Assembly: GCA_965207885.1 (NCBI GenBank)
Contig: OZ242311.1
Coordinates: forward strand, 960,001-1,024,000
Source: Candidatus Latescibacterota bacterium
GTDB lineage: Bacteria > Latescibacterota > UBA2968
DNA length: 64,000 nucleotides
Direction of reading: 5' to 3'
Part shown: one piece after another, positions 7,849-46,509 of the stretch
Layout of the letters: each line of letters starts with the position of its first letter
Position numbering within the stretch: the first letter of the stretch is position 1
Program-made: the position numbers and the translations under genes
Notes under the pieces: model-generated
The model's input: only the letters and a program-made list of their open reading frames with translations
Database searches by the model: none
What the model was told of the DNA's origin: nothing

Positions 7849-7852
7849 TTCA

Positions 7853-14450: not shown

Positions 14451-14466
14451 GATAGGAGATCAGCTC

Positions 14467-16166: not shown

Positions 16167-16224
16167 TTTGCGTCCTTCCCTTTGTTCTGCATCGTAGATT
16201 TGTTCCCTGTAATGTAGATGGTGG

Positions 16225-17391
16225 CTATGAGTGTGTAGTGCCAAAAACGCCAGCAAAGATGAGAAAATCCGCAAAGTTAATGATACCATCGTCGTTCATA
16301 TCCATACGGGCATCGTAATTGGCATCCGATGACGATAATCCGAATACGCTAATGAAGGTGAGATAATCGGAAAAGTCAACATCGCGGTCGCCATCGAAAT
16401 CGCCCGGATAAGAAATATGGATAGAGATCATGGCGTTGGACACATCTAAGGGGTCCTGGTGCCTATTGAGATCTGCCATTGAAGCGGTTTTGACGATGAG
16501 CGTTGTCTCTGCTTCAAGGGTATTGGTCACTTGTAAGTCAATTTGACCGAGATAACCAGTGGCAGGCACAGCAGGGGTAGAGAGCAATAGCGCAGACAGG
16601 ATAGGAGTACCCGGTGTCGGGAACAGGGCTGCATCGGTAAAATCCTTGCCCGATATACTACCGATGTAGTTGGAAAATGTCTTGCCCGGCAGGTCGAGTT
16701 CTATTTCGTAACCATAGGTTTGTTTGCCTGCGGCCATTGGAACAAAGAGTTGAAGTTGAATTGTATCGCCAGCTTTTTGTTCGGGAATGGTTAGCGCGTT
16801 ATTTTGTGCAGCGGGTGTTTCAATTTGTGTGTCGAGGTGGAGTTGCATGCCGGCAAATTCGCCACTTGTAGGCTCGTTAAACGATATGACATTTGTCGTT
16901 GTGATTACATCGCTCGATGCCGAGCTCTGAGCGAGTGTCACCGCCTTAATGCCAAGCGTAAACTCTTTACCCGTAATATCTGCTACGGTAGAAAACTCGG
17001 CGCGTCCTATAAAACCAGACGATGGCAATGTGACAGGTGTAGTCGTTGCGAAATTTACGCCCGTCGGTTCTGGAATAGCAAACGGAAACGCACTGTTCTC
17101 GACTTTATCAAGTTTCAAAACAGAAGCATCGAATTCAAATATGATGACTACACCAGCGAGAGGTGTGGTCACACCTTTTGCGAAGACTTCAACGGCAATT
17201 TTTGTGTCCTGTCCAGAGACTGTGCCTGAAGTAACGCGGTTATCTATTTGATTACCTGCTCCACCATCGGAGATCAGGTCAAGCGACACCGTCGCATTGG
17301 CATTGGGGCCAGCAGAGGCTTGACCCGCGAAAGCCAGTAATGCAAGGGTGATAGTAAACAAAAGCCCTTTTTTTAATAACATTTGCAACAA
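16225..17391 (-). CDS. Secreted/surface protein with cohesin-like beta-sandwich domains and a C-terminal dockerin-like double EF-hand
   Basis: N-terminal signal peptide ending AGQASA; C-terminal DFDGDRDVDFSDYL...DMNDDGIINFADFL Ca-binding repeats. Confidence 0.7.
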   Translation of the reverse strand: MLQMLLKKGLLFTITLALLAFAGQASAGPNANATVSLDLISDGGAGNQIDNRVTSGTVSGQDTKIAVEVFAKGVTTPLAGVVIIFEFDASVLKLDKVENSAFPFAIPEPTGVNFATTTPVTLPSSGFIGRAEFSTVADITGKEFTLGIKAVTLAQSSASSDVITTTNVISFNEPTSGEFAGMQLHLDTQIETPAAQNNALTIPEQKAGDTIQLQLFVPMAAGKQTYGYEIELDLPGKTFSNYIGSISGKDFTDAALFPTPGTPILSALLLSTPAVPATGYLGQIDLQVTNTLEAETTLIVKTASMADLNRHQDPLDVSNAMISIHISYPGDFDGDRDVDFSDYLTFISVFGLSSSDANYDARMDMNDDGIINFADFLIFAGVFGTTHS

Positions 17392-17678
17392 TCCTCAATA
17401 TATTGAATGATTGGCGATCATTTTGAGCCTATCGAGCGAGGGATGACCTGCTGTGCAGTTCTTCAACTTCTCTACGCTTCGCCCAGCATGCGTAGCCCTT
17501 GTCGCCCAGTTATCTCTTTATGTTGTGCAAAGATAAGTAGAAAATCAATCAGATAATAGTGTTACTTTTCGCCCTTTCAAAGATATATATACTGATTTTT
17601 TTAAAAGTGGACTGTGATCTATTGAAGGTATATTTTAGTTGTCCCGAAATGAATAGAATTATTCCCGGTGAGGAGCGT

Positions 17679-18941
17679 ATGGCGAGACCAAATGTTGTGT
17701 TAATTATGGCAGATGACATGGGGTTTGAGTGTTTGAGTTGTTATGGGAGTACGACATATAAAACGCCGGTGTTGGATGATCTGGCATCGCGGGGAATTCG
17801 CTTTTCCCATTGTTATTCGACGCCGTTGTGTACGCCTTCTCGCGTGGAGATTATGACGGGGCAGTACAATTTTCGGAATTACGACAGGTTCGCCTATTTG
17901 AATCCCAAAGAAAAGACGTTTGGCAATTTGTTAAAGGATGCGGGGTATGCTACGTGTGTTGCGGGCAAGTGGCAGTTGAGCAGGGACAATAAGATGCCGG
18001 CGCATTTTGGGTTTGACGAGCATTGTTTGTGGAACATGACGCCGCTTCCAGAAGATCCTGCACGCGTTGCAAAGGGGCGATATGCAAATCCGCAAATTGA
18101 ACGTAATGGCGAATGGTTGCCAGACGATTATATCGAAGATCGGTATGGTCCCGATATTTGTTGTGATTATTTGCTGGATTTTATTGAGCGACATCGGGAT
18201 GTGCCTTTTTTTGCTTATTATCCGATGATTCTGGTTCACGCGCCTTTTGTTCCCACGCCCGATAGTCCGGAATGGCGGGATAGAGGTCGCAGAGATGAGC
18301 AGGATACGCGCTATTTTGCCGATATGGTGGCGTATGCGGATAAGCTGGTGGGGCGGATTGTGGAGAAGCTCGAGGCGCTCGATTTGCTCGAGAATACACT
18401 GGTGATGTTTACGAGTGATAATGGTACGCATCGCACGATTACGTCCCAGCTTGAGGGTGGTGTTGATATTGTGGGCGGTAAAGGCACGATGCCCGATGCG
18501 GGGACACATGTGCCTTTTATTGCTTTTTGGAAGGGTGTGGTGCCAGAGGGCGTGGTGTTAGATGATCTGGTGGATTTTAGCGATTTTTTGCCGACGCTGA
18601 TGGATTTGGCAGATGCGCCTATTCCAGAGGGGATGCCGTGTGATGGGCGGAGTTTTTTGCCGCAGTTGCGAGGCGAACGGGGCGATCCGAGGGATTGGAT
18701 TTTTTGTCATTACAACCCGCGTTTTGGTTTTGGCCAGGATCACGCGGGACAGTTTGCGCGGGAACATCGGTTTAAAATTTATCACGATGGGCGGTTTTAC
18801 GATGTGCCTGCAGATCGGCTGGAAGAGCACGATATTGTTTTGGGGCAAGGCGATGCCGATTCTGAAGAGGCGCGCGAACGCTTGCAAAAGGTGTTGAATA
18901 TGATGCCGGAATTTATTGATGATTATGTTCCGGAGCGGTGA
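17679..18941 (+). CDS. Sulfatase (S1, Cys-type)
   Basis: RPNVVLIMADDMG, CTPSR, GKWQL, SDNG; GAGGAG RBS. Confidence 0.92.
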   Translation: MARPNVVLIMADDMGFECLSCYGSTTYKTPVLDDLASRGIRFSHCYSTPLCTPSRVEIMTGQYNFRNYDRFAYLNPKEKTFGNLLKDAGYATCVAGKWQLSRDNKMPAHFGFDEHCLWNMTPLPEDPARVAKGRYANPQIERNGEWLPDDYIEDRYGPDICCDYLLDFIERHRDVPFFAYYPMILVHAPFVPTPDSPEWRDRGRRDEQDTRYFADMVAYADKLVGRIVEKLEALDLLENTLVMFTSDNGTHRTITSQLEGGVDIVGGKGTMPDAGTHVPFIAFWKGVVPEGVVLDDLVDFSDFLPTLMDLADAPIPEGMPCDGRSFLPQLRGERGDPRDWIFCHYNPRFGFGQDHAGQFAREHRFKIYHDGRFYDVPADRLEEHDIVLGQGDADSEEARERLQKVLNMMPEFIDDYVPER

Positions 18942-18964
18942 TATTTTTTTTAAAGGAGGGTTTA

Positions 18965-20341
18965 ATGTCTGATTCGCGTCCCAATATTCTCTACATTATG
19001 TCTGATGATCATACTGTGAATGCCATCAGTTGTTATAACGGATGGCTGAATGAGGTGGTGGATACACCGAATATTGACCGCATCGCTCGTGAGGGGATGC
19101 GGTTTGACAATTGTATTTGCAATAATGCGCTGTGTTCGCCGAGCAGGGCGAGTATTATTACGGGGCAATATAGCCATAAAAATGGGGTGTTGCGGTTGAA
19201 TCAACCGCTGAGTGACGATCACCCCAATTTTGTGCGGCAGTTGCAGGCTTCTGGATATCAAACGGGTATTGCGGGTAAGTGGCATTTGGGGTCTGATCCG
19301 GATGGGTTTGATTATTGGGAGGTGTTGCCGGGGCAGGGGGCTTATTTTGATCCGTCGTTTACGCGCAATGGCGAGCCGACGCAGTACGAGGGGTACGCGA
19401 CGGATATTATTACGGATTTATCGCTCAACTGGTTGAGGGCGCGCGATCCGGATAAGCCTTTTTTGATGCTGTGCCATCACAAAGCACCCCATGGTTTGTG
19501 GGAGTACGCGCCCCGTCATGCGGATTTGTTCACGGATGGGGATTTGCCCGAGCCGTCGAATTTGTATAAGCCGTTTGACAAGGTGTCCAGCGCGTTGGAG
19601 AATCACCACCGCACGATGCTCTCGCAGGCCGAGCGGATGGATGAGGGCGTCCGGGGAAGAGCGTGGCCTACGGGGCGGTTGGATACGACGGGGATGAATA
19701 CGACGGAGAAGATTCAGGCGGCTTATCAGAAGTATGTGAAGGATTATTTGCGGTGTATTGTGGCGATTGATGAGGGTGTGGGGCGGTTGCTGGATTTTCT
19801 GGATGAGGAGGGGTTGACGGAGAATACGATTGTGGTATATACTTCTGACCAGGGTATGTTTTTGGGCGAGCATTCGTATTTTGACAAGCGGTTGATTTTG
19901 GAAGAGTCACTGCTCATGCCTTATGTGATGCGGTATCCGAGAGCGATTGCACCGGGTTCGGTGAATGAGGATATTGTGGTGAATGTGGATTTTGGTGCGA
20001 CGTATCTCGATTTTGCAGGGTTGCAACCCGATGCAGAGGTGCAGGGCAGAAGTTTTCGCGCGCTGTGCGAAGGGGATACGCCAGAAGATTGGCGGCAGTC
20101 GGCTTTTTATGCGTATTGGGATGGGCCGACAAAGCACTATGGCGTGCGTACGCAAGACTATACGCTCGCAGTACATCGAACGGGCGAGCGCGATTTGTTC
20201 GATTTGGAAAAGGATCCCTGGGAGATGACGAGTGTGTACGGCGATCCGGCGTATGCCGATGTGCAGGCAGAGGTAGAAGCAGATCTGGCGCGGTTGATCG
20301 AGGAGATCGATATTAGTGCGGAGGAGTTGCCGCAGGAGTGA
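18965..20341 (+). CDS. Sulfatase (S1, N-acetylglucosamine-6-sulfatase-like)
   Basis: RPNILYIMSDDH, CSPSR, GKWHLG, HHKAPH, TSDQG.FLGEH..FDKR; AAGGAGG RBS. Confidence 0.92.
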   Translation: MSDSRPNILYIMSDDHTVNAISCYNGWLNEVVDTPNIDRIAREGMRFDNCICNNALCSPSRASIITGQYSHKNGVLRLNQPLSDDHPNFVRQLQASGYQTGIAGKWHLGSDPDGFDYWEVLPGQGAYFDPSFTRNGEPTQYEGYATDIITDLSLNWLRARDPDKPFLMLCHHKAPHGLWEYAPRHADLFTDGDLPEPSNLYKPFDKVSSALENHHRTMLSQAERMDEGVRGRAWPTGRLDTTGMNTTEKIQAAYQKYVKDYLRCIVAIDEGVGRLLDFLDEEGLTENTIVVYTSDQGMFLGEHSYFDKRLILEESLLMPYVMRYPRAIAPGSVNEDIVVNVDFGATYLDFAGLQPDAEVQGRSFRALCEGDTPEDWRQSAFYAYWDGPTKHYGVRTQDYTLAVHRTGERDLFDLEKDPWEMTSVYGDPAYADVQAEVEADLARLIEEIDISAEELPQE

Positions 20342-20343
20342 AG

Positions 20344-20586
20344 ATGTCGGATGAACGGGATATTGTGATAGCAGATGAATGGGATGCGGGACACATGGGG
20401 TGCGGCGAGGTTATTATTTTGCTCAGGATGCGGATGCAAAAGCTCGAGGAGGGCGAGGTTTTGAAGCTTACGGCGTATGATCCTGGCGCGCCTGTTGATT
20501 TGCCCGCCTGGTGTCGCCTGACTGGACGGCGGATGGTTCGCGCGGCTCACCCGTTTTACTGGATAGAACAGAAACCAAAAAAGTAA
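20344..20586 (+). CDS. TusA/SirA-like sulfur carrier protein
   Basis: WDAGHMGCGE...GEVLKLTAYDPGAPVDLPAWCRLTG, TusA fold pattern with CG in place of CPxP. Confidence 0.85.
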   Translation: MSDERDIVIADEWDAGHMGCGEVIILLRMRMQKLEEGEVLKLTAYDPGAPVDLPAWCRLTGRRMVRAAHPFYWIEQKPKK

Positions 20587-20596
20587 AGGAGTAAAA

Positions 20597-20959
20597 GTGG
20601 CTGGAAAATTCTGTGTTAGTTTGACTTGTGCGAAGGATGATACCGATAAAGCGACTGTGGCTTTTGTGGTTGCCAATGCCGCGCTGGGGTCGGAGAAGGA
20701 GACGCTCGTTTTTATGACTACGGAGGGGGTTCGTCTTTCTCAGAAGGGCTATGCCGACGATGTGGCGGAGGATGGCTTTTTGCCGTTGAAGGATCTCATG
20801 GATTTGTTTGTGGGTGGTGGGGGAACGATTTACGTGTGTGCGCCGTGTTTTAAGAAGCGCGGTTTGGATGAGAATAATCTGGTCGATGGGGCGATTATGG
20901 TTGGGGGCGCTGCGCTGGTGGAGTTTCTTTCCGATGGGACGCCCTGTATTACGTATTAG
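20597..20959 (+). CDS. DsrE/F-like protein
   Basis: ATVAFVVANAA, VFMTTEGV, GGTIYVCAPCFKKRG; AAGGAG RBS. Confidence 0.87.
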   Translation: MAGKFCVSLTCAKDDTDKATVAFVVANAALGSEKETLVFMTTEGVRLSQKGYADDVAEDGFLPLKDLMDLFVGGGGTIYVCAPCFKKRGLDENNLVDGAIMVGGAALVEFLSDGTPCITY

Positions 20960-20967
20960 GAGGTACG

Positions 20968-22464
20968 TTGGAGCCGATAGTACGACACGAATACGCGCCC
21001 GATGTCAGTTTTGATGGTGGGGATTTGGATTGTGGCGGCGGTTTGTTGCTGCTGATTCGCCGACATATCGATCCGCTGGCGCGCGGTGGGTTGTTAGAGA
21101 TTTTATCGACGGATGCGACGGTAGAGATCGAGTTGCCCGCATGGTGTCGGTTGACGAGCAATGAACTGGTATCGTGGACAAAGGTGGGGCGGCAGCGCAG
21201 TTATCTCGTTTGCAAGGGGCCGTTTGAGGACCGCGGGCGGGCTGTGGCTTCTGTTGGGGAGCAACTTCGGGTGGCGGTGACGATTCCCGATTCGCTGCCG
21301 GGGCCTGCGCCCGCGCCGGGGATTGCGCCGTTGTCTGTTATGGGTATTGGGAGTTGGCCGCGTCCCCGTTGGATGCTGCAGGCGGTGCACGATCGGCTCG
21401 AGGGCAGGCTGGATGACGCGGCGTTTCAGGCGACGGCGGATGATGCGGTGCGGCTTTGTATTGGCGCGCAGTCTCGCGCTGGGGTTGATGTGCTGACGGA
21501 TGGGGAGCAGCGTCGGGATAGTTATGCGAGTTTTGTGGGTGGGTTGCTGGATAATTGCCAGCTTATTCCGCTGAGCGATTTGACGGCGATGGTGGATGAT
21601 TCGGAGAAGTTTGAGCGGGAGTTGCGCGCGCTGGATGTTCCGGCGGCTGAGGTGCGGCATCCGGTGGTGTACGGGAAGTTGGGGAGGAGCCGTCCGCTGG
21701 CGGTTCACGAGTTTGAGTTTGCGAGTTCTTGTGTGGATAAGCCGGTGAAGGTGGCGCTGCCCGGGCCTTATTTGCTGACGCGTACGATGTGGCTGGATTG
21801 TCTCAGGGAGCGTCCGTACGAGTCGCGGGATGAACTGGCACGGGATGTGGTGCGGGTTTTGCGGGAGGAAGTTCATTTTTTGCTGGCGGCGGGTGTTGCG
21901 CTGGTGCAGTTCGATGAGCCGGTTTTGACAGAAGTGGTTTTTGGGGGTGCGACCGGGAATCGCAGTTTTATGTGTGGGGCTTTGAGCGAGAAGTTAGAGG
22001 CGTCGATGGAGCTTGACTTTGCGGTCGGTTTGTTGAATGAGGTTGTGCGGGGTCTGCCGGGGGAGCGGCTGGGACTGCATATTTGCCGGGGCAATTGGAC
22101 GCGGGATGAGTCCGCGGCGCTTTCCGGGGGGTATGGTGCGCTGATGGATGTGCTGAAGCGGGTGGATGTGGGGGCGCTGTTTCTGGAGCTTTGCACTGAG
22201 CGGGCTGGTGATGTGGATGTGTTGAAAGCGGTTCCGGAAGATAAGCGCGTGGGTGTTGGTGTGGTGAATCAGAAGCTGGATTCGGTGGAGTTGGTGGAAG
22301 ATATTCGGCGGCGAATTTCAGCGGCGATCAATCTGTTTGGAGAAGCGCGCGTTTTGCTGACACCGGATTGCGGTTTTGCCACGTTCGCCGATAATCCCGT
22401 GGCTTCGGCACATGTGGCGGAGGCAAAGTTGAAAGCGATTGTCGATGCACGCGATTTGATTTAA
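20968..22464 (+). CDS. Fusion: N-terminal TusA-like domain plus cobalamin-independent methionine synthase C-terminal (MetE-II-like) Zn barrel
   Basis: N-terminal FDGGDLDCGGGLLLLIR...LPAWCRLT; then IGSWPRP, TDGEQRR, PGP, VQFDEP, LHICRGN, LE, PDCGF Zn ligands; AGGAGG RBS. Confidence 0.87.
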   Translation: MEPIVRHEYAPDVSFDGGDLDCGGGLLLLIRRHIDPLARGGLLEILSTDATVEIELPAWCRLTSNELVSWTKVGRQRSYLVCKGPFEDRGRAVASVGEQLRVAVTIPDSLPGPAPAPGIAPLSVMGIGSWPRPRWMLQAVHDRLEGRLDDAAFQATADDAVRLCIGAQSRAGVDVLTDGEQRRDSYASFVGGLLDNCQLIPLSDLTAMVDDSEKFERELRALDVPAAEVRHPVVYGKLGRSRPLAVHEFEFASSCVDKPVKVALPGPYLLTRTMWLDCLRERPYESRDELARDVVRVLREEVHFLLAAGVALVQFDEPVLTEVVFGGATGNRSFMCGALSEKLEASMELDFAVGLLNEVVRGLPGERLGLHICRGNWTRDESAALSGGYGALMDVLKRVDVGALFLELCTERAGDVDVLKAVPEDKRVGVGVVNQKLDSVELVEDIRRRISAAINLFGEARVLLTPDCGFATFADNPVASAHVAEAKLKAIVDARDLI

Positions 22465-22536
22465 GAAAATCGAGACTTCATATCCGATTGCCGTTCTTTT
22501 GCTGTTTTTGTATTTCTGCATGAGAACCTCCTTTAG

Positions 22537-22565
22537 ACGCACAGGACAACCTGTGCGTTTTTTTT
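22537..22565 (+). terminator. Rho-independent terminator
   Basis: ACGCACAGG-acaa-CCTGTGCGT perfect 9-bp stem followed by a T run. Confidence 0.8.
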
Positions 22566-22593
22566 GTTATCACGCACTTTTACAGGGTATAAT
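22564..22593 (+). promoter_or_regulatory. Candidate sigma70 promoter reading into the defence island
   Basis: TTGTTA-N18-TATAAT directly after the terminator. Confidence 0.4.
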
Positions 22594-22890: not shown

Positions 22891-24642
22891 ATGCGAGCAA
22901 CATTTGACAGCACAAAGAACGGTATTGGAGATATACTTAGTAAAGTGGACAATGGGAAGATGCAACTTCCTGACTTTCAGCGAGGCTGGGTCTGGGATGA
23001 CCATCACATCCGGGATCTCATAGCCAGCGTGTCGCTATCTTTTCCTATTGGAGCAGTGATGACGCTTGAAAATGGTGGCAAAGATGTGCGTTTCAATCCT
23101 CGGCCCATAGAAGGCACTGACGAATCAGTTAAACAGGTGCAACCTGAAACACTCATACTGGATGGACAGCAGCGACTCACCTCTCTTTTTCAAGCTCTCA
23201 AGGCTGAAAAAAAGCCTGTCGAGACAAGAGACTCTAAAGGAGAGAGAATTCAGCGGTGGTACTATTTGGATATGGAGAAGTGCGTTACAGACGATACTGA
23301 TCGCGAAGATGCGATTATTTCTATTCCGGAAGACCGACACTTAAAGGCATTTGGTAGAGAAGTAGTTCTTGACCTCTCTTCACCTGAAAGAGAATATGCT
23401 GAATCTATGTTCCCATTGTGTCAGATTTTCAACGCTGATGAATGGATGCAAGGTTACATTGAATACTGGGAATTAGATCGCGATAAATGGAATTTGTACA
23501 GACAGTTTAACGGTCAAGTTATTAAACGCTTTGAGCAGTATCAAGTCCCCGTGATTGAGCTTGACAAGGAAACTCCTAAGGAGGCAGTTTGTATCGTCTT
23601 TGAGAAGGTGAACACCGGAGGTGTAACACTTACCGTTTTTGAATTGCTTACCGCATCTTTTGCTGCGGACAATTTCCAACTTCGTGAAGACTGGGATAAA
23701 CGAAAGGTGCGATTGAAGGAAAAACATCCAGTATTATCCAATATCGAAAGCACCTCTTTTCTGCAAGCACTTACTCTGATTTCTACTAAAGAGAAGGGAA
23801 ACGCTGTTAGTTGCAAGCGCCGGGACATCCTACGTCTAACCGTCGATGATTACAAGAAATGGGCTAACCGCGTTGAAGACGGATTTGCCCGGGCTGCCAA
23901 ATTCATACATAGGCAAAAAATATTTAGCTTCAGGGATTTGCCATACAGGACTCAGCTAGTTCCTCTTGCGGCAATTCTTACAGACTTGGGAGATGTTGAT
24001 GATAAAGAAGGTCTAAATAAAAGAATCGCACGTTGGTACTGGTGTGGTGTGCTCGGCGAGATGTACAGTGGAGCTACAGAAACCCGCTTCGCTAACGACC
24101 TCGTGGAAGTAACGGAATGGATACGTGGTGGGACGGAAGAGCCGAGAACAATTCAGGATGCAAACTTCCAAGCGATCCGTCTGCTTACACTGAAGACTCG
24201 CAATAGTGCTGCGTATAAGGGTGTCTATGCGCTACTTATGAGCGATGGCAGCCGAGATTTCCGATCTGGTGTGACCATAGAAGAGGCGACCTTTTTTGAC
24301 GACAATATTGATATACATCACATATTTCCCAAAGCGTGGTGCAAAGGTCATAACATAGATAGCGATAAAGTTGATAGCATAATAAACAAAACGGCAATTT
24401 CCTCAAAAACGAATCGGAGTATTGGTGGACACGCACCTTCTGAATATCTACTTACCCTTGAGAAGGACGCAGGAATTGACGCTACTTCTATGGATTCGAT
24501 ACTTGCATCCCACTGTATCCCCGCCCAAGCATTGCGTAGTAATAACTTTGATCAGTTTTTTGCTCATCGCACAGAAGAATTAATTCAGAGGATTGAGAAA
24601 GCTATGGAAAAACAGGTAGTTCGTGATGAGGGCGAGTTTTAG
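22891..24642 (+). CDS. GmrSD-like (DUF262 + DUF1524/HNH) modification-dependent restriction endonuclease
   Basis: PDFQRGWVW, FPIG, LDGQQRLT, FEKVNTGG; C-terminal DIHHIFP...N......TN; AAGGAGG RBS. Confidence 0.87.
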   Translation: MRATFDSTKNGIGDILSKVDNGKMQLPDFQRGWVWDDHHIRDLIASVSLSFPIGAVMTLENGGKDVRFNPRPIEGTDESVKQVQPETLILDGQQRLTSLFQALKAEKKPVETRDSKGERIQRWYYLDMEKCVTDDTDREDAIISIPEDRHLKAFGREVVLDLSSPEREYAESMFPLCQIFNADEWMQGYIEYWELDRDKWNLYRQFNGQVIKRFEQYQVPVIELDKETPKEAVCIVFEKVNTGGVTLTVFELLTASFAADNFQLREDWDKRKVRLKEKHPVLSNIESTSFLQALTLISTKEKGNAVSCKRRDILRLTVDDYKKWANRVEDGFARAAKFIHRQKIFSFRDLPYRTQLVPLAAILTDLGDVDDKEGLNKRIARWYWCGVLGEMYSGATETRFANDLVEVTEWIRGGTEEPRTIQDANFQAIRLLTLKTRNSAAYKGVYALLMSDGSRDFRSGVTIEEATFFDDNIDIHHIFPKAWCKGHNIDSDKVDSIINKTAISSKTNRSIGGHAPSEYLLTLEKDAGIDATSMDSILASHCIPAQALRSNNFDQFFAHRTEELIQRIEKAMEKQVVRDEGEF

Positions 24643-24714
24643 TATTGTGAGTCAGTTAAATATTACGAATGACAGTTCCAAAGACAAAATAAAAGTATAG
24701 ATTAAAAACCACCC

Positions 24715-24821
24715 TCAAGGCACACACTACAGGGAGATAACCCTGTCAGATATGCTTAAATTTATCACACAAGACGACATGCATGTGAATGAATTGCCTC
24801 GGAAACCGCATGAGTGGATCA
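24715..24821 (+). pseudogene. Degenerate duplicate of the RBS and first ~26 codons of the cupin gene at 29213
   Basis: Ungapped alignment to 29185-29291, about 81/107 identical by hand count; translates LSDMLKFITQDDMHVNELPRKPHEWI versus MSDVLRFIRHDDVQVEELPWGPHEWI. Confidence 0.85.
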
Positions 24822-24852
24822 AGATTAGACGATACACTGCGAAGATTTGTCT

Positions 24853-26247
24853 ATGACCCTTGAGTACATCACATCTCTAATTGCAACTGGCGAGTCTGAG
24901 ACGCTGGAGTTCAAGCAGACGGCAGGAAGACGCCGCGAGGCTACTCAAACCATGTGTGCTATGCTCAATCACCGGGGAGGGCACGTCCTGTTTGGCGTTA
25001 CGCCGGAAGGAAATGTGACTGGCCAGCAGGTGAGTGATCGTACGGTTGAGGAGGTGAGTGAGGAGATCCAGAGGCTCGACCCGCCAGCCTTTCCCACAAT
25101 TGAGCGGGTTCCTGTAGAAGAAGGTCGGGAGGTGATTATGGTGAGCGTTAGTCAAGGTCAGATGAAGCCTTATAGCTACAAAGGCGTTGCCTATCGCCGG
25201 GTTGGAAATACCAATTTGAGTATGTCGCGCGACGAGTACAATCAAATGTTGTTCGAACGGATGCACAGCGAGCAGCGTTGGGAGAATCAGCCTGCCCCTG
25301 GCTGGTCAGTTGACGATCTCGACATAGCTGAGATCCATCGCTTGGTTGATGAAGCAATCCGCCGAGGACGCGCCGAGGATCCGGGGACACGCGAGCCAGA
25401 GGCATTGTTGCGAGGTCTTGGGTTAATCAAAGACGGCGCACTATTGCGTGCCGCGGTCGTGCTATTTGGAACTACCGAACGGATTGAGGCTGAGATGCCT
25501 CAGTGCCTGCTCCGGGTTGCTCGTTTTCGTGGCGTTGATCGCACGGATTTTCTCGACAACCGACAGTTTCGCGGCAACGCTTTCACCTTGCTTACAAGGG
25601 CAGAGCGTTTTATGATCGAAAATTTACCTATAGCCGGGCGCATCATCCCAAATCTCTTCGAGCGGGTAGATGAGCCGCTCTATCCGCCAGTCGCGCTACG
25701 CGAGGCATTGGCGAACGCACTATGCCATCGGGATTACTCAATCGGCGGTGGCTCGGTGGCCGTGGCGATATACGACGACCGCCTCGAGGTGACTTCGTCC
25801 GGTTCGCTGCATTTTGGGTTGACTGCGGAGAAATTGTTTGAGACGCACGAGTCGCTGCCCTGGAATCCCTTGATCGCTGGTGTATTCTACCGACGGGGCA
25901 TTATTGAGCAATGGGGACGCGGTACTATCAAGATGGCGGAACTGACGACATCTGCCGGTTTGCCGCAGCCTGAGATTGAGGATGTGTCCGGTTGTGTGAC
26001 GGTGCGCTTTCGCCCCAGCCAATATGTACCCCCCCAGCGCGTGGGACGAGATTTGACCGAGCGGCAACAGGCGATTCTCGCTATGCTGGATCCGGCAGGA
26101 CAGGGTCTGGCACTGCGCGAGATATACGCCCAGATGAAGTTGCAGGCCACCGAGCGGCAGGTGCGTGAAGACTTGGCTATTCTTAAGATGCTCGGGCTGG
26201 CTGTACCTACAGGCCGTGGGCGAGGAGCAAGGTGGAATCGTTTGTAA
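24853..26247 (+). CDS. AlbA_2 (Schlafen-like) + HATPase_c_4 + C-terminal wHTH protein
   Basis: ESETLEFK, AMLNHRGG.VLFGV, LREALANALCHRDY, DDRLEVTSSG, NPLIA, EQWGRG, C-terminal HTH. Confidence 0.87.
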   Translation: MTLEYITSLIATGESETLEFKQTAGRRREATQTMCAMLNHRGGHVLFGVTPEGNVTGQQVSDRTVEEVSEEIQRLDPPAFPTIERVPVEEGREVIMVSVSQGQMKPYSYKGVAYRRVGNTNLSMSRDEYNQMLFERMHSEQRWENQPAPGWSVDDLDIAEIHRLVDEAIRRGRAEDPGTREPEALLRGLGLIKDGALLRAAVVLFGTTERIEAEMPQCLLRVARFRGVDRTDFLDNRQFRGNAFTLLTRAERFMIENLPIAGRIIPNLFERVDEPLYPPVALREALANALCHRDYSIGGGSVAVAIYDDRLEVTSSGSLHFGLTAEKLFETHESLPWNPLIAGVFYRRGIIEQWGRGTIKMAELTTSAGLPQPEIEDVSGCVTVRFRPSQYVPPQRVGRDLTERQQAILAMLDPAGQGLALREIYAQMKLQATERQVREDLAILKMLGLAVPTGRGRGARWNRL

Positions 26248-26327
26248 CTTGAGATGTTGGCTCAAGTCTGGCTCATTAAGGGCTTATTCTCAAACTTTCT
26301 GATGAAACTACTTGTAAATAAAAGGTT

Positions 26328-26366
26328 TGGCTAATTCTGGCTAATTCTGGCTAATTCTGGCTAATT
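26328..26366 (+). repeat. Tandem 10-bp repeat (TGGCTAATTC)x~4
   Basis: tggctaattc tggctaattc tggctaattc tggctaatt; related half-copies at ~26258-26290. Confidence 0.9.
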
Positions 26367-26556
26367 AGAGGCTTATTTGAGGAAGGCAGGACGTGACACT
26401 CTTTTAACACTGTTGCGTCAGGTGTTAAAATCAATGCCTCATACACCCTGCACATCGCTGTCAAAGATGCCAGAAATATCCCGAGAGGTAGTTTCAGGTA
26501 ATCTTCAACACCGCAGTTGCACACTAAATACATGATAGATCGAAAGGTATAAAGGT

Positions 26557-29178
26557 ATGTATGAAACGATTCGCAGTCTTCTCAACGACACTGAATTTTC
26601 AGTTATCGAGTCTTTTGAGATTCCTGGGCGGTCTGCCCAATACTCAAAAATTCCTCAGTTCTTGTTCGACTCTGAGATAGGCAACTATCTCAGCCAAGAA
26701 TATCGTGAACCCGGTTCGAAAACCCCCGGTCTATGGGCCCATCAAGCACAAGCTTTAGAAGCACTTGGAAACAGTGATAATGTTGTAATATCTACCGGAA
26801 CTGCGTCTGGTAAGAGCCTCGTGTTTCGTGCGCTCGCTCTGCACAAGGTACTTCTCGATCCTTTGAGCCGCGTGGTTGTCTTTTACCCTCTCAGAGCACT
26901 TGTCGCAGACCAACTTCGTGGATGGCGAGAAATGGCAGGAAAGGTCGGTCTTAATGAGAATATTGTTGGACAGATAGATGGCTCTGTGGATTTCAATGAG
27001 AGAGAAGATATATTACAACAGGCACGTATCGTCGTTATGACGCCCGATGTATGTCAGGCGTGGCTTATGCCGCGTTTGGCAATGCCTGTGGTCAGGAAAT
27101 TCATAAGTTCACTCTCAACTCTGGTCATGGATGAGGCGCATACATTAGAGGGGGTTTTTGGAAGCAACTTTGCATTTTTAATTCGACGAATACTTGCTGC
27201 ACGTAATCATCTGCTTGGTAACAAATCTAGATCTGAGAAGCTCCAACTCGTTGCAGCCACTGCTACGATCTCTAATCCCGGAGAACATCTGAAGCAACTT
27301 ACCGGCACAGAATTCACGGTCATTGACCATGAAGCTGATGGCGCGCCGCACTATAAGCGAATCGTGGCGCATATCGCGTGTCCAGAGGGAGAAGAACTCA
27401 AAATTGCTCAAGAATTGCAACAACGCGTACTTGTCAACGGATGTAAAGGGGCATTTATCACATTCATGGATTCCCGAAAAGGCGTCGAAACCTTGGCTAT
27501 GTCCACTCAGAATGAACTGGACGAACTTTTTGACGATCCGGCAATAGCTTCGTATCGCGGAGGGTTTACATCTGAAGCTCGGCAGCACATAGAAGAACAA
27601 TTAAGGTCGGGAAATTACCGTGGCGTTGTGTCAACATCCGCGCTTGAAATGGGAATTGACTTTCCCAATTTACGCGGAGGGTTCAATGTAGGTTTGCCTC
27701 CAACTCGTAAGGCGTACCGGCAGCGACTGGGACGAATTGGTCGCAGTGGACCGGGAGCATTTGTGGTGATTGGACCCTCCAATGCGTTTCGGCGATACGG
27801 CACATCTTTTCAGGAGTATCACAATATGTCGGTGGAGCCTTCTTACCTGTATCTTGACAATCGTTTCATGCAGTTTGCTCATGGGCGATGCCTCGCTGAT
27901 GAACGCGATGCACTTGCTGCTCCCACGAGCCTTCCGACTCATGTACGGTGGCCAAGCCATTTTAGAGATGTTTACTCAGCGGCCCGTCCCGGAGGGCGTC
28001 GCCCTCCCGAATTTGATGCCATCGCAGAGCTTGGAGGTGATACTCCGCAAAGGAATTATCCACTCCGCAATGTGGGTGAAGTGAATTTGCAGATAAAGCG
28101 CTATGAAAATACTGATAGTTTAGGTGATGTAACACAATCTCAAGCCTTGCGAGAGTGTTATCCGGGTGCCTCCTACTTCCACATGATGCAATCATATGAG
28201 GTTGCAGCTTGGCGCACTGCCACTATCAATTCATTTATCCAAGTAAAACCTGGAATACCAGGCCGTTCAACTCGCCCTCAAATCACAACATGGATTAAAA
28301 CTGGAATTACGGCAACGGAACTCATTGAAGGCCACTTGCTCAAGGGTGATAACGGTTTTCTAGCCGAATGTCAGATGCTTATCACTGAGCGAGTTAATGG
28401 ATATGTAGATGGAAGAACTGGCGACTCTTATCTGTACCGAGACCTTCAGCAACGTAATCCCAACATGAAGGCTCGCTCTCGGAATTTTCGCACTAGTGGA
28501 ATCGTGCTCTGTATAGAAAAAGACTGGTTCAAAAAGTTGGCTGTGAAACGGATGATTTCCGATGTGTTACGTGAAGTATTCGGACATGAATATAGCATTC
28601 TACCACAAGATATAGGTTCTGCAGCAACCAATATTTCGGTTCGAGATAGCGATGGCAAGGAATGGCAGGGTGGATGTGTGGCGGTGTTTGACGAGACCTA
28701 TGGCAGTCTGCGTCTTACCGAACAACTGTTTATTGAATTCAATCATATTCTCGAACGTTTGGCCATGGCTGCAAAGACCGATGCATCGCCAGAGGCAAAG
28801 AGCTTCCTACACATCATCACTAAAATTCAAAAGACGGTTTCCGGTTTTTCTTCCAGCAATCCCTTTGTATCAGGCCCAAAAGTCGAACTACATAGAGGTT
28901 ATGTGCAGGTATTTAAGAAAGATTCTCGTGTATGTTACAGGGAGAGTGGCTCCATTGCTGTCGATGTAGAGATTATCCAGCCGACTATCATGGATGGAGA
29001 ACTCAGGTATCAAGTGCGAACTCCACAAAGGATGGGACAGCCGCCTCTACTTCGTTGGGTTTCCGAATCGTCTGTTGAACCATCCGCAGATGCAGATGCT
29101 TGGGAATATGCTTGGTGGAACCGTGAAACAGAGACTTATGAAAATCCGCCAGACTACAATGAGGAATCGGAGTTTTAG
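26557..29178 (+). CDS. SF2 DEAD/DEAH-box helicase, Hrq1/YprA(MrfA)-like
   Basis: LWAHQ, TGTASGKS, YPLRAL..DQ, TPD, DEAH, ATISNP, STSALEMGID, QRLGRIGR. Confidence 0.9.
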   Translation: MYETIRSLLNDTEFSVIESFEIPGRSAQYSKIPQFLFDSEIGNYLSQEYREPGSKTPGLWAHQAQALEALGNSDNVVISTGTASGKSLVFRALALHKVLLDPLSRVVVFYPLRALVADQLRGWREMAGKVGLNENIVGQIDGSVDFNEREDILQQARIVVMTPDVCQAWLMPRLAMPVVRKFISSLSTLVMDEAHTLEGVFGSNFAFLIRRILAARNHLLGNKSRSEKLQLVAATATISNPGEHLKQLTGTEFTVIDHEADGAPHYKRIVAHIACPEGEELKIAQELQQRVLVNGCKGAFITFMDSRKGVETLAMSTQNELDELFDDPAIASYRGGFTSEARQHIEEQLRSGNYRGVVSTSALEMGIDFPNLRGGFNVGLPPTRKAYRQRLGRIGRSGPGAFVVIGPSNAFRRYGTSFQEYHNMSVEPSYLYLDNRFMQFAHGRCLADERDALAAPTSLPTHVRWPSHFRDVYSAARPGGRRPPEFDAIAELGGDTPQRNYPLRNVGEVNLQIKRYENTDSLGDVTQSQALRECYPGASYFHMMQSYEVAAWRTATINSFIQVKPGIPGRSTRPQITTWIKTGITATELIEGHLLKGDNGFLAECQMLITERVNGYVDGRTGDSYLYRDLQQRNPNMKARSRNFRTSGIVLCIEKDWFKKLAVKRMISDVLREVFGHEYSILPQDIGSAATNISVRDSDGKEWQGGCVAVFDETYGSLRLTEQLFIEFNHILERLAMAAKTDASPEAKSFLHIITKIQKTVSGFSSSNPFVSGPKVELHRGYVQVFKKDSRVCYRESGSIAVDVEIIQPTIMDGELRYQVRTPQRMGQPPLLRWVSESSVEPSADADAWEYAWWNRETETYENPPDYNEESEF

Positions 29179-29617: not shown

Positions 29618-29619
29618 AG

Positions 29620-46482: not shown

Positions 46483-46509
46483 TCTCAAATAGTTTTTAGA
46501 GGGGTGTGT

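What the first reader, a model, noticed from the sequence alone, without database searches (positions are those of the whole stretch)
20344..22464. TusA + DsrE + TusA::MetE-like operon: candidate undescribed sulfur-relay/thiol-alkylation system
Seen: three tightly linked genes closed by a terminator. They encode a stand-alone TusA-like protein (DAGHMGCGE), a DsrE protein (CAPC), and a single-barrel MetE-type Zn enzyme (HIC...E...PDCG ligands intact) fused to a second TusA-like domain (DGGDLDCGG). Both TusA domains have CG rather than CPxP and share LPAWCRLT. The folate-binding N-terminal barrel of full MetE is absent. Established: TusA and DsrE proteins carry persulfide sulfur; single-barrel MetE homologues use Zn to activate a thiol for alkyl transfer (folate-independent methionine synthases, epoxyalkane:CoM transferase). 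Inference: the Zn barrel may alkylate, or be fed by, a protein-bound Cys/persulfide. This could be a new methionine or thioether synthesis route, or an electrophile-detoxification route. I know of no characterised system with this architecture.
Basis: partly seen in the sequence, partly recalled or inferred. Interest (0 to 1): 0.78.

Follow-up and report, generated by a model that had tools for sequence, protein, structure and literature searches.

The report
Sulfur-carrier trio feeding a MetE-type zinc enzyme
Three tightly linked genes, two small sulfur-carrier proteins and a zinc enzyme of the methionine-synthase type fused to a third carrier domain, form a widely conserved and uncharacterised module that probably joins protein-bound sulfur to a homocysteine-like amino acid.

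Summary
TusA-like (20344-20586), DsrE-like (20597-20959) and TusA::core-MetE (20968-22464) genes lie 8-10 nt apart and end at a terminator (22535-22560). In this genome they follow two sulfatase genes.

- **Conservation:** 74 of 80 fetched loci from at least seven phyla hold all three genes. In 251 sampled Dehalococcoidia genomes, the same 25 carry both fusion and DsrE, always adjacent.
- **Active site:** all four zinc ligands and all three homocysteine-binding residues of E. coli MetE are invariant. So are the TusA cysteines, the DsrE CAPC motif, and an extra cysteine (C336) on an inserted loop.
- **Sister family:** the closest unfused barrels keep C336. They pair with a one-Cys OsmC-like protein (16/18 loci) and a tandem rhodanese (11/18).
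- **Genome context:** the cassette's TusA and DsrE are the only members of those families in this genome, which also has MetH.
- **Literature:** no paper describing the module was found.

Best reading (inferred, not shown): a dedicated persulfide relay ends at a MetE-type zinc site that holds a homocysteine skeleton. The exact reaction is open; it could be homocysteine synthesis, a fifth core methionine synthase, or sulfur mobilisation.

The parts
17559..18941 (+). Sulfatase 1, Cys-type (CTPSR). The coordinates give the longest ORF. The likely start is an internal ATG at 17649 or 17679, and no signal peptide is evident. It is the first gene of the apparent operon in this genome.
   Evidence: PF00884 scores 177 bits. 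Its stop overlaps the start of the next gene. Homologues at 93-94% identity hold the same position in L004-L006.
18938..20341 (+). Sulfatase 2, Cys-type (CSPSR), with an SGSH_C domain. Its stop codon TGA at 20339-20341 lies 2 nt before the TusA ATG.
   Evidence: PF00884 scores 164.5 bits and PF16347 scores 141 bits. The junction sequence was read.
20344..20586 (+). Stand-alone TusA-like carrier. The ORF is also open from GTG 20338, and the residue numbers used here count from 20338. Invariant residues are Cys22-Gly23 (codon 20401-20403) and Cys59 within LPAWC.
   Evidence: PF01206 scores 32.4 bits against a 28.6 cut-off. It aligns to E. coli TusA (1DCJ/3LVJ), with Cys22 opposite the Cys of the ..LRCPEP.. 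motif. C22, G23 and C59 are invariant in 51 of 51 sequences.
20597..20959 (+). DsrE-like carrier of 120 aa. The CAPC motif is invariant: C81 at codon 20837-20839 and C84 at 20846-20848.
   Evidence: PF02635 scores 49.3 bits. The closest solved chain is 3MC3, with E 3.7e-8, and C81 lies opposite its YVC cysteine. PMC11094781 describes 3MC3 as the S. solfataricus SSO1125 trimer and compares its rings with DsrE3A crystals. C81, P83 and C84 are invariant in 57 of 57 sequences.
20968..21237 (+). N-terminal TusA-like domain of the fusion, residues 1-90. Cys22 lies at codon 21031-21033 and Cys60 within LPAWC.
   Evidence: PF01206 E-value is 3e-4 here, and the domain passes the cut-off in relatives. 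The AF2 model shows a beta-alpha-beta-alpha-beta-beta pattern over residues 13-82. C22 is kept in 68 of 68 sequences and C60 in 61 of 69.
21238..21279 (+). Linker between the TusA domain and the barrel, residues about 91-104.
   Evidence: pLDDT is below 50 for residues 91-99. The consensus is variable here.
21280..22464 (+). Core MetE-type (beta/alpha)8 Zn barrel, residues 105-498.
- Homocysteine site: S129 (21352-21354), E180 (21505-21507), D316 (21913-21915).
- Zn ligands: H371 (22078-22080), C373 (22084-22086), E407 (22186-22188), C468 (22369-22371).
- Clade-specific loop Cys: C336 (21973-21975).
- Fusion-family Cys: C278.
   Evidence: PF01717 scores 106.6 bits. The closest solved chain is 3RPD (MesD), by phmmer at 2.9e-20 and by Foldseek at TM 0.81 on the target with 22% identity. 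The residue mapping onto E. coli MetE is. Invariance in 69 of 69 sequences is. C336 is shared with the sister family, 12 of 12.
22535..22570 (+). Intrinsic terminator-like hairpin followed by a T-run. It closes the operon.
   Evidence: One search finds an 11-pair stem with 6 G-C pairs. The sequence was read.

Best explanation
The three genes form one self-contained functional unit: a dedicated cysteine-based sulfur relay that ends inside a MetE-type zinc enzyme.

**Shown.**
- The trio is conserved as a block across phyla.
- The barrel keeps MetE's complete Zn site and its complete homocysteine-binding triad.
- Every carrier cysteine is invariant.
- The barrel clade carries an additional invariant cysteine (C336) on an inserted, poorly ordered loop.

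**Inferred.**
- Sulfane sulfur, perhaps derived from thiosulfate, is loaded onto the free TusA or DsrE.
- It then passes from TusA to DsrE (CAPC), to the fused TusA domain (C22), to the loop Cys336.
- At the end it is presented as a persulfide to the zinc ion.
- There it is joined to a four-carbon amino-acid skeleton held by S129, E180 and D316.
- This would give homocysteine, probably first as a mixed disulfide that a second carrier cysteine resolves.

On this reading the module is a PLP-independent, protein-persulfide-dependent entry of sulfur into the homocysteine/methionine pool. It would run as an accessory route beside the normal pathway. The sister modules (barrel, one-Cys OsmC-like protein, rhodanese) would do the same with a different carrier set.
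For: 1. **Block conservation.**
 - All three genes are present in 74 of 80 loci, on one strand in 73 and in the order TusA-DsrE-fusion (a transporter is inserted in four loci). In L047 the TusA lies downstream on the opposite strand.
 - Four of the six exceptions are cut by a contig end.
 - No fourth gene is conserved.
2. **Co-occurrence.** In 251 sampled Dehalococcoidia genomes, the 25 with the fusion (at least 68% identity) are exactly the 25 with the DsrE (at least 63%), at adjacent coordinates.
3. **No other client.** The cassette's TusA and DsrE are the only PF01206 and PF02635 matches in the 6.2-Mb genome, which is 97% complete.
4. **Active site.** S129, E180, D316, H371, C373, E407 and C468 align with E. 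coli MetE S433, E484, D599, H641, C643, E665 and C726. The residue roles are taken from PMC7857596. All seven are invariant in 69 of 69 sequences.
5. **Carrier cysteines.** All are invariant.
6. **Sister family.**
 - C336 sits in an insertion absent from E. coli MetE, where the model has low pLDDT.
 - It is shared with the unfused sister family at 40-46% identity.
 - That family lies next to a one-Cys OsmC-like protein in 16 of 18 loci and a tandem rhodanese with a CRTGPRA active site in 11 of 18.
 - So there are two different sets of sulfur-carrier partners for one barrel clade.
7. **Linked importer.**
 - A PhnCDE-type ABC importer is linked to the cassette in at least 8 of 80 loci, from Burkholderiales and Rokuibacteriota, and lies between DsrE and the fusion in four of them. 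The substrate-binding protein (TIGR01098, 158 bits against a 112 cut-off) was found in five of the eight; in the other three only the ATPase gene was found.
 - A TusA-like protein working with a thiosulfate importer has a precedent in YeeE/YeeD (PMC11073785, abstract only).
8. **Transcript-library contig.** One contig from a metatranscriptome library spans TusA, DsrE and most of the fusion (20362-22167). This is weak evidence, because DNA can be present in such libraries.
Against: - No chemistry was tested. The electrophilic amino-acid partner, an activated homoserine or similar, is a guess, and no gene for making it is linked.
- All known homocysteine-forming enzymes that use activated homoserine use PLP (recalled, not from a call).
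- Conservation of the MetE homocysteine triad is exactly what Price et al. used to argue for methionine-synthase function in MesA-D. It therefore fits the rival reading equally well.
- The window's genome already has two strong Cys/Met PLP enzymes, a sulfite/nitrite reductase-family protein (NIR_SIR) and MetH, so no pathway gap calls for this function.
- The pathway-gap test did not discriminate. PF01053 was found in 9 of 25 carriers and 61 of 226 non-carriers (p = 0.35).
- No SAM, cobalamin or other riboswitch was found in the window or in 11 loci.
Confidence: 0.35

Rival explanations
1. This is a fifth family of core (folate-independent) methionine synthase. The barrel methylates Zn-bound homocysteine as MetE and MesA-D do. 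The TusA/DsrE proteins play the accessory part that corrinoid proteins play for MesA-C and MesX plays for MesD. They might generate or deliver an unusual methyl donor, or keep the extra cysteines and the Zn site reduced.
For: - All seven functional residues of MetE are invariant. PMC7857596 used this criterion to call MesA-D methionine synthases.
- The closest solved structure is MesD, 3RPD. MesD needs a partner protein of unknown role and often coexists with MetH or MetE, as this module does here.
- In one Dehalococcoidia lineage, the sister barrels lie next to another PF01717 gene and near a PF02574 homocysteine S-methyltransferase.
- Four of the five complete carrier chromosomes searched have no full-length MetH.
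Against: - TusA, DsrE, rhodanese and OsmC-like proteins are cysteine and sulfur carriers. None is known to carry or make a methyl group (recalled).
- No methyl-generating enzyme is linked to the module.
- The module falls below every curated methionine-synthase equivalog cut-off, for example PRK04326 at 151 bits against 406.
- No SAM or B12 riboswitch was found.
- The extra invariant loop cysteine and the covalently fused carrier are unexplained by simple methyl transfer.
Confidence: 0.25
2. The module mobilises or buffers sulfur, running in the opposite direction. The Zn site binds a low-molecular-weight thiol or persulfide shaped like homocysteine. Candidates are homocysteine itself or cysteine persulfide, which has the same chain length. 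The terminal sulfur is exchanged with Cys336 and handed outward through the TusA domain, DsrE and TusA. The purpose would be assimilation or detoxification of reactive sulfur species.
For: - The carrier and cysteine evidence is the same as for the best explanation.
- Persulfide exchange between thiols needs no extra activated substrate, which fits the absence of any further conserved gene.
- DsrE4-type proteins have been proposed to detoxify reactive sulfur species (PMC11094781, passage).
- The distribution is accessory and patchy: 25 of 251 sampled Dehalococcoidia genomes.
Against: - No downstream client for the sulfur is linked or evident. These are the genome's only TusA and DsrE.
- A zinc site and a full amino-acid-binding triad are elaborate for plain persulfide exchange.
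- The isostere argument for cysteine persulfide is my inference only.
Confidence: 0.15
3. This is thiol alkylation or electrophile detoxification, one of the first reader's options. Like epoxyalkane:CoM transferase, the barrel would use Zn to activate a protein cysteine or persulfide, which then attacks an exogenous electrophile.
For: - The barrel has the MetE-superfamily Zn-thiolate site.
- A carrier cysteine is tethered to it.
- An importer is linked in some lineages.
- The epoxyalkane:CoM transferase precedent is recalled, not tested here.
Against: - The homocysteine-binding S, E and D residues are invariant. That points to an alpha-amino-acid ligand rather than a generic electrophile.
- A stoichiometric protein nucleophile would be consumed.
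- No linked gene would release or recycle an adduct.
Confidence: 0.07
4. The function is tied to sulfatases: maturation of Cys-type sulfatases, or handling of a product of sulfate-ester hydrolysis. The basis is that the cassette is co-oriented and translationally coupled with two sulfatase genes here.
For: - The stop and start codons are coupled with sulfatase 2.
- L004-L006 have the same arrangement, and five Dehalococcoidia loci have a sulfatase directly downstream.
- Among the flanking genes scanned, 3 of 83 upstream and 5 of 80 downstream are sulfatases, and 2 are FGE-sulfatase proteins.
Against: - 72 of 80 loci have no sulfatase in the flanks.
- The window itself holds at least 7 sulfatase genes in 64 kb, so adjacency is expected in such genomes.
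- Burkholderiales, Bdellovibrionota and other carriers show quite different contexts.
Confidence: 0.04

Closest known systems
MesD/MesX core methionine synthase (Price et al. 2021, PMC7857596; structure 3RPD)
   Same: - It is a single MetE-type barrel without the folate domain.
- It has the same Zn ligands and homocysteine triad.
- It is the closest solved structure.
- It depends on a dedicated partner protein and usually coexists with MetH or MetE.
   Different: - Identity to 3RPD is only about 22%.
- The partner here is TusA/DsrE, not DUF1852, which was not found in this genome (the control genomes did not match this family either).
- This barrel has a fused TusA domain and an inserted loop with an invariant Cys.
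Full-length MetE (E. coli b3829)
   Same: - The catalytic-domain fold is shared.
- All seven functional residues are identical in the alignment.
   Different: - There is no N-terminal folate-binding barrel.
- There is an insertion of roughly 12 residues, in the pairwise alignment, carrying Cys336.
- There is an N-terminal TusA domain.
DsrE3-TusA sulfur or thiosulfonate relays of sulfur oxidisers (Liu et al. 2014 as cited in, and Tanabe et al. 2024 = PMC11094781)
   Same: - A small DsrE3-like protein is paired with TusA.
- The active-site Cys aligns with that of 3MC3.
- In those systems sulfur moves between DsrE3 and TusA cysteines (passages).
   Different: - There is no sHdr, Dsr or lipoate-binding-protein context.
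- The TusA motif is C-G rather than CPxP.
- DsrE has a CxxC motif.
- The relay ends in a MetE-type Zn enzyme, and the organisms are heterotrophs.
Sister module found here: unfused barrel + one-Cys OsmC-like protein + tandem rhodanese (Dehalococcoidia loci L092-L109). Public records name it only 'cobalamin-independent methionine synthase II family protein'.
   Same: - The barrel clade is the same, at 40-46% identity.
- The Zn site, the homocysteine site and the FMC-loop Cys are identical.
- The partners are cysteine-based sulfur proteins.
   Different: - There is no TusA fusion, and the carrier families differ.
- It is itself uncharacterised, so it adds context but no function.
YeeE/YeeD (TsuA/TsuB) thiosulfate uptake (PMC11073785, abstract only)
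   Same: A TusA-like protein works directly with an importer of a sulfur oxyanion. Here a PhnCDE-type importer is embedded in the cassette in some lineages.
   Different: - The transporter family is different.
- The importer's ligand here is unknown.
- YeeE/YeeD has no Zn barrel.

Membership tests
MetE catalytic-domain superfamily (Pfam PF01717 Meth_synt_2) | Profile match above the curated cut-off | tested here: met
   106.6 bits against a cut-off of 21.
MetE catalytic-domain superfamily (Pfam PF01717 Meth_synt_2) | Zn ligands His-Cys-Glu-Cys (E. coli H641, C643, E665, C726) | tested here: met
   H371, C373, E407 and C468 align with them and are invariant in 69 of 69 sequences.
MetE catalytic-domain superfamily (Pfam PF01717 Meth_synt_2) | Homocysteine-binding Ser/Glu/Asp (E. 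coli S433, E484, D599) | tested here: met
   S129, E180 and D316 align with them and are invariant in 69 of 69 sequences.
MetE catalytic-domain superfamily (Pfam PF01717 Meth_synt_2) | (beta/alpha)8 barrel fold like solved MetE and MesD | tested here: met
   The AF2 model has pLDDT 82.4. Foldseek finds 3RPD at TM 0.81 on the target and T. maritima MetE at E 1e-19.
Full-length MetE (TIGR01371, 5-methyl-THF-triglutamate:homocysteine methyltransferase) | N-terminal folate-binding barrel, and a score above the equivalog cut-off | tested here: not met
   TIGR01371 scores 74.6 bits against 929.95. PF08267 scores 16.7 bits against 27.
MesD (Price 2021) | Close similarity to ACIAD3523-type MesD (about 55% identity or more), and adjacency to MesX (DUF1852) | tested here: not met
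   Identity to MesD 3RPD is 22%. PF08908 has no match in the genome, though this family matched none of the control genomes either, so the negative is weak. No such neighbour occurs in the 80 loci.
MesA/MesB/MesC (corrinoid-dependent core synthases) | Family-level similarity, and linkage to corrinoid or Wood-Ljungdahl proteins | tested here: inconclusive
   Only the archaeal and other 'methionine synthase' NCBIfam equivalogs were scored, and all fall below cut-off (best PRK04326, 151 bits against 406). No corrinoid-protein family appears among the top 25 families listed for the flanking genes. No MesA, MesB or MesC sequences were compared directly.
Methionine synthase activity (any family) | Methyl transfer to homocysteine | not testable with these tools
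   This needs an enzyme assay or complementation.
TusA (PF01206) | Profile match, and the conserved active-site Cys at the E. coli Cys19 position | tested here: met
   The stand-alone protein scores 32.4 bits against 28.6, with Cys22 opposite the Cys of ..LRCPEP.. in 1DCJ/3LVJ. The fused domain scores 21.0 bits here, below cut-off, but 28.8-34.9 bits in relatives.
TusA (PF01206) | CPxP active-site motif (described as characteristic in PMC11094781) | tested here: not met
   Both copies have C-G. C22 and G23 are invariant in 51 of 51 stand-alone proteins, and D21-C22-G23 is at least 90% conserved in the fusions.
TusA (PF01206) | Carries persulfide sulfur on the active-site Cys | not testable with these tools
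   This needs mass spectrometry of the protein.
DsrE family (PF02635), DsrE3-like | Profile match, and the active-site Cys aligned with a solved DsrE3-type protein | tested here: met
   49.3 bits against 22.7. 3MC3 matches at E 3.7e-8, with C81 opposite its YVC cysteine. No subgroup tree was built, so the assignment to DsrE3A, B or C is open.
DsrE family (PF02635), DsrE3-like | Homotrimer that exchanges sulfur with TusA | not tested
   The oligomeric state and the transfer were not examined.

The most novel reading that the evidence does not exclude
The module is the first case of a protein-persulfide relay feeding a MetE-type zinc enzyme. It would be a PLP-independent route that builds homocysteine or methionine directly from carrier-bound sulfane sulfur, perhaps from imported thiosulfate. 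It would define, together with the OsmC-like/rhodanese-linked sister family, a new clade of 'FMC-loop' Zn barrels. That clade is found in many species from at least seven phyla.
Probability: 0.3. Interest if true: 0.85.

Novelty: new variant of a known kind. Interest (0 to 1): 0.7.

Why it matters
- Core MetE-like enzymes are annotated everywhere as ordinary methionine synthase, including this family. Each family that has been examined, MesA to MesD, turned out to use a different partner and chemistry.
- This clade has two independent sets of sulfur-carrier partners and an extra catalytic-looking cysteine.
- It is spread through soil, freshwater and marine or sponge-associated bacteria.
- If the relay really feeds sulfur, or an unusual methyl group, into a homocysteine site, that would add a new entry point to sulfur amino-acid metabolism.
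- It would also give TusA/DsrE proteins a role outside sulfur oxidation and tRNA or cofactor thiolation.
- It would correct a widespread misannotation.
- The homologues in cultured Burkholderia and Paraburkholderia isolates (L061, L064) make the question directly testable.

Tried and rejected
- **Complex prediction.** Fusion plus DsrE gave 'no answer' (score 0.02, mark 0.32). This is no evidence either way.
- **Cys-to-Zn distance.** The AF2 model returns no coordinates, and none appeared in /data.
- **Riboswitch search.** Nothing was found in the window or in 11 diverse loci, apart from three tRNAs.
- **Pathway-gap test.**
 - Three of five complete carrier chromosomes lack PF01053 at E ≤ 1e-20, and none of the five has PF01837.
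 - This looked promising, but the class-wide sample showed that PF01053 is equally rare in non-carriers: 9 of 25 against 61 of 226. I rejected it as evidence.
- **Methionine-synthase gap.**
 - Carriers hold many PF01717 paralogues, with 23 and 22 matches in two genomes. Only 1 of 5 has a full MetH. This was not decisive.
- **Horizontal-transfer signal.** Cassette GC is 0.57 and GC3 is 0.59, within the range of neighbouring genes. There is no signal.
- **Extra domains.**
 - Long 'TusA' ORFs in four loci contain only TusA.
 - P0097, at 702 aa, shows no added domain.
 - The 150 best library representatives gave only TusA fusions, a MobA-like fusion at 33% identity, and an intein-bearing barrel.
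- **ESM Atlas.** It returned only generic names.
- **Literature.**
 - Six term combinations found nothing relevant.
 - Two key papers contain no mention of TusA or DsrE.
 - Supplementary files were not opened, so S1-type tables in PMC7857596 could list this family without my knowing.
- **Read laying.** Parts of the stretch without cover in the four RNA-library runs are not interpreted.
- **Chance adjacency** was rejected.
- **Counting note.** An interim note said rhodanese occurred in 12 of 18 sister loci. A recount gives 11 of 18, and nine of those come from one closely related lineage.

Full report
**What is there.** One search lists five same-strand ORFs.
- Two sulfatases: 17559-18941 and 18938-20341.
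- An 80-82-aa TusA-like protein: 20338/20344-20586.
- A 120-aa DsrE-like protein: 20597-20959.
- A 498-aa fusion protein: 20968-22464.

Pfam confirms each call:
- Sulfatase: 177 and 164 bits.
- TusA: 32.4 bits against a 28.6 cut-off.
- DsrE: 49.3 bits against 22.7.
- Fusion, Meth_synt_2: 106.6 bits against 21.
- Fusion, N-terminal TusA: 21.0 bits, below cut-off here but above it in more distant fusion homologues (28.8-34.9 bits).

The folate-binding barrel of full-length MetE is missing. PF08267 scores 16.7 bits against 27, and TIGR01371 scores 74.6 against 929.95.

The three genes are 10 and 8 nt apart, each behind a GGAG-type site. An 11-pair hairpin with a T-run follows at 22535-22560.

The stop codon of sulfatase 2 lies 2 nt before the TusA ATG. 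In this genome the transcription unit therefore probably has five genes.

**Is the association real?**

A scan of one genome per species returned 80 loci with a fusion homologue at 62-96% identity. By their record titles these come from:
- Latescibacterota;
- Dehalococcoidia and other Chloroflexota;
- Terriglobia and other Acidobacteriota;
- Burkholderiales;
- Planctomycetota;
- Rokuibacteriota;
- Binatota;
- Bdellovibrionota;
- a Pedosphaera MAG.

Of the 80 loci, 514 stretches had passed the confirmation step and the best 80 were kept.

BLAST of the window's proteins against all ORFs of these loci gave these counts:
- a DsrE homologue (62-98% identity) in 76 of 80;
- a free TusA (39-94%) in 74 of 80.

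The order is TusA-DsrE-fusion on one strand, with these exceptions:
- L047 has the TusA downstream on the other strand.
- Four loci have a transporter inserted.
- Of the six loci lacking TusA, four (L020, L074, L080, L081) end within about 1.1 kb upstream of the fusion.
- Only L050 and L073 lack TusA and DsrE despite full flanks.

No fourth gene is conserved.
- All-against-all clustering found nothing in more than 12 of the 80 loci apart from overlapping-frame ORFs.
- Pfam tallies of the 83 upstream or intervening genes and the 80 downstream genes are scattered. Sulfatase appears in 3 and 5, ABC_tran in 4, MFS in 5 and FUR in 3.

I also took the reciprocal view in 251 genomes sampled from the class Dehalococcoidia.
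- The DsrE (at least 63% identity) occurs in 25.
- The fusion (at least 68%) occurs in the same 25, always at adjacent coordinates.
- Fisher's p is 5e-35. The genomes are related, so this is an index, not a probability.

In the window's own genome (6.23 Mb, one contig, 97% complete), the cassette's two TusA modules and its DsrE are the only matches to PF01206 and PF02635. The carriers have no other evident client.

**Anatomy.**

I aligned the barrel with E. coli MetE, fetched. The window residues fall exactly on the MetE residues listed by Price et al. (PMC7857596, passages read):
- S129, E180 and D316 on the homocysteine-binding S433, E484 and D599;
- H371, C373, E407 and C468 on the zinc ligands H641, C643, E665 and C726.

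All seven are invariant in an alignment of 69 family members.

The closest solved chain is MesD from Shewanella, 3RPD.
- phmmer gives E 2.9e-20.
- An AF2 model (pLDDT 82.4, pTM 0.75) matches it by Foldseek with TM 0.81 on the target and 22% identity.

The N-terminal 90 residues are modelled as beta-alpha-beta-alpha-beta-beta.

Cysteine conservation is strict.

| Protein | Residue | Conserved in |
|---|---|---|
| Fusion | C22 | 68 of 68 |
| Fusion | C60 | 61 of 69 |
| Fusion | C278, C336, C373, C468 | 69 of 69 |
| Free TusA | C22, G23, C59 | 51 of 51 |
| DsrE | C81, P83, C84 | 57 of 57 |

- Both TusA modules have C-G where canonical TusA has CPxP. PMC11094781 calls that motif characteristic.
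- TusA C22 aligns with the active-site Cys of E. coli TusA.
- DsrE C81 aligns with the YVC cysteine of 3MC3. PMC11094781 describes 3MC3 as the trimeric S. solfataricus protein and compares it with DsrE3A.
- C336 lies in an insertion relative to E. coli MetE, where the model is poorly ordered (pLDDT below 50 at residues 336-338).

**A sister family with other sulfur carriers.**

The class-wide search also turned up unfused barrels. They are about 387-404 aa and 40-46% identical over residues 118-497. I fetched 18 such loci.
- These barrels keep the Zn tetrad, the homocysteine triad and Cys336, within the shared loop motif R/E-S/T-F-M-C. This holds in 12 of 12 aligned sequences. They lack C278 and C197.
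- In 14 of 18 loci the next gene downstream is an OsmC-like protein (PF02566). In two more it lies about 570 nt upstream. One match is weak, and one contig ends.
- The OsmC-like protein keeps one conserved Cys. The second OsmC cysteine position reads SPV (the usual position of that Cys is recalled).
- In 11 of 18 loci a tandem rhodanese with a CRTGPRA active site follows. Nine of these 11 come from one closely related lineage, so about three independent lineages show it.
- This family is itself highly conserved, with the top 120 hits at 84-92% identity. Public records name it only 'cobalamin-independent methionine synthase II family protein'.

So one clade of MetE-type barrels is marked by an extra loop cysteine. 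It has twice been coupled to cysteine-based sulfur proteins: once TusA plus DsrE, and once OsmC-like plus rhodanese. To me this is the strongest argument that the co-substrate is protein-bound sulfur.

**Other links.**

A PhnCDE-type ABC importer accompanies the cassette in at least 8 of 80 loci.
- Its substrate-binding protein matches TIGR01098 at 158 bits against a 112 cut-off.
- In L054, L061, L062 and L068 it lies between DsrE and the fusion.
- In L056 (Rokuibacteriota) it lies directly upstream of TusA.
- Only its ATPase gene was found in L050, L073 and L080.
- Its ligand is unknown.
- A TusA-like protein working with a thiosulfate importer has a precedent in YeeE/YeeD (PMC11073785, abstract only).

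Sulfatases flank the cassette in 8 of 80 loci. The window itself has at least seven sulfatase genes and a PL8-type lyase, so adjacency in such genomes is unsurprising.

One Bdellovibrionales locus has a 2-thiouracil-desulfurase-family gene directly upstream.

**Genome and expression context.**
- The genome encodes a full-length MetH, two strong Cys/Met PLP enzymes and a sulfite/nitrite reductase-family protein. The module is therefore accessory.
- No MesX was found. The controls did not match this family either, so that negative is weak.
- No riboswitch was found.
- The stretch is listed in sponge and marine metagenome runs of several studies at 0.44-0.58 of its sampled words.
- In four metatranscriptome-library runs from three studies, contigs 90-99% alike cover the cassette.
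 - One 1911-nt contig spans 20362-22167, which is TusA, DsrE and most of the fusion.
 - An 18.5-kb contig bridges the junction of sulfatase 2 and TusA.
 - Such libraries can contain DNA, so this is only a weak hint of co-transcription.

**How it most likely works.**

The following is shown:
- a conserved, closed three-protein unit;
- a complete MetE-type Zn and homocysteine site;
- invariant carrier cysteines;
- a clade-specific loop cysteine;
- two alternative sulfur-carrier partner sets.

The following is inferred.
- Sulfane sulfur travels from TusA to DsrE, to the fused TusA domain, to Cys336, to the Zn site.
- There it meets an amino acid with the homocysteine skeleton.

I favour C-S bond formation giving homocysteine from an activated four-carbon amino acid. 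The persulfide would take the place of MetE's thiolate nucleophile, and a second carrier cysteine would resolve the mixed disulfide. Zn-thiolate alkylations with other electrophiles are established for MetE, epoxyalkane:CoM transferase and protein farnesyltransferase (recalled, not tested here).

The main rival is a fifth core methionine synthase, with the carriers in an accessory role. The residue evidence fits it equally well. It is weakened by the nature of the partners and by the lack of any linked methyl-generating gene.

A third reading reverses the flow, taking sulfur from homocysteine persulfide or the isosteric cysteine persulfide.

I could not separate these readings.
- The pathway-gap test failed to discriminate.
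- The complex prediction gave no answer.

**Comparison and novelty.**
- The barrel is a member of the MetE catalytic-domain superfamily.
- It is not full-length MetE or MesD. MesA, MesB and MesC were not compared directly (see the membership rows).
- The carriers belong to the TusA and DsrE families, but both TusA modules lack the CPxP motif.
- The closest analogue in logic is MesD/MesX: a core barrel that depends on a dedicated partner of unknown chemistry.
- Six literature searches found no description of a TusA/DsrE-MetE or an OsmC/rhodanese-MetE module.
- Neither Price 2021 nor GapMind 2026 mentions TusA or DsrE.
- Databases name the protein as ordinary MetE.
- Supplements were closed, and subscription journals are not in the library, so a prior description cannot be excluded.

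I rate this a new variant of a known kind, and of high interest because it is widespread, misannotated and directly testable.

Noticed in passing
Loci L092-L109 (e.g. L093:3851-6369, minus strand): There is an unfused sister family of MetE-type barrels, 40-46% identical to the fusion's barrel, with the same Zn and homocysteine residues and the same extra loop Cys. It is followed by a one-Cys OsmC-like gene (16/18 loci) and a tandem rhodanese (11/18). The family is uncharacterised and annotated only as 'methionine synthase II family'.
   Followed up: yes
L062:3399-6004, L068:3417-6004, L061:3384-6001, L054:3489-5932, L056:3804-5950: A PhnCDE-type ABC importer is inserted within or directly beside the TusA-DsrE-fusion cassette in Burkholderiales and a Rokuibacteriota MAG. 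Its binding protein belongs to the phosphate/phosphite/phosphonate family TIGR01098, and its ligand is unknown. L062 and L068 also have a second DsrE-like gene and a 123-aa gene without a Pfam or NCBIfam match upstream of TusA.
   Followed up: partly
window 11389-13155, 17559-20341, 29596-31074, 32634-35419, 42947-44335, 46504-49533: The window is a sulfated-glycan utilisation region. It holds at least seven sulfatase genes, several without an obvious signal peptide, and a PL8/chondroitin-lyase-type gene of 1009 aa.
   Followed up: partly
window 22891-29178: Directly downstream of the terminator lies a lower-GC stretch (GmrSD gene GC 0.44). It holds a GmrSD-type restriction endonuclease (22891-24642), a Schlafen/AlbA_2 + HATPase_c_4 protein (24847-26247) and a DEAD/DEAH helicase (26557-29178). 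It looks like a small defence island.
   Followed up: no
window 14356-15321 (+), 15318-16289 (-), 16225-17391 (-): Two convergent PhyH-type dioxygenase genes and a 388-aa protein with a C-terminal dockerin domain lie upstream of the sulfatase operon.
   Followed up: no
G001 and G002 (genomes of L007 and L008): These roughly 2.8-Mb Dehalococcoidia chromosomes give 23 and 22 matches to the MetE catalytic domain PF01717. This is a large paralogue expansion of core MetE-like barrels, and neither genome has a full-length MetH.
   Followed up: no
L083:6574-8157: In a Binatota MAG the fusion gene is read as two ORFs, 6574-7488 and 7513-8157. This could be a frameshift, an assembly error or a genuinely split form.
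   Followed up: no
Protein P0373 (736 aa): This is a distant MetE-type barrel (33% identity) interrupted by Hint and homing-endonuclease domains, which makes it an intein-bearing core MetE.
   Followed up: no
window 1-64000: GC skew is positive in nearly every 2-kb bin and the cumulative skew rises steadily. Almost all long ORFs lie on the + strand. Both fit a leading-strand segment far from the replication origin or terminus.
   Followed up: no
L078:5145-5723: A 2-thiouracil-desulfurase-family gene (PF04463) sits directly upstream of the cassette in a Bdellovibrionales MAG. It is another sulfur-handling neighbour, seen in 1 of 80 loci.
   Followed up: no
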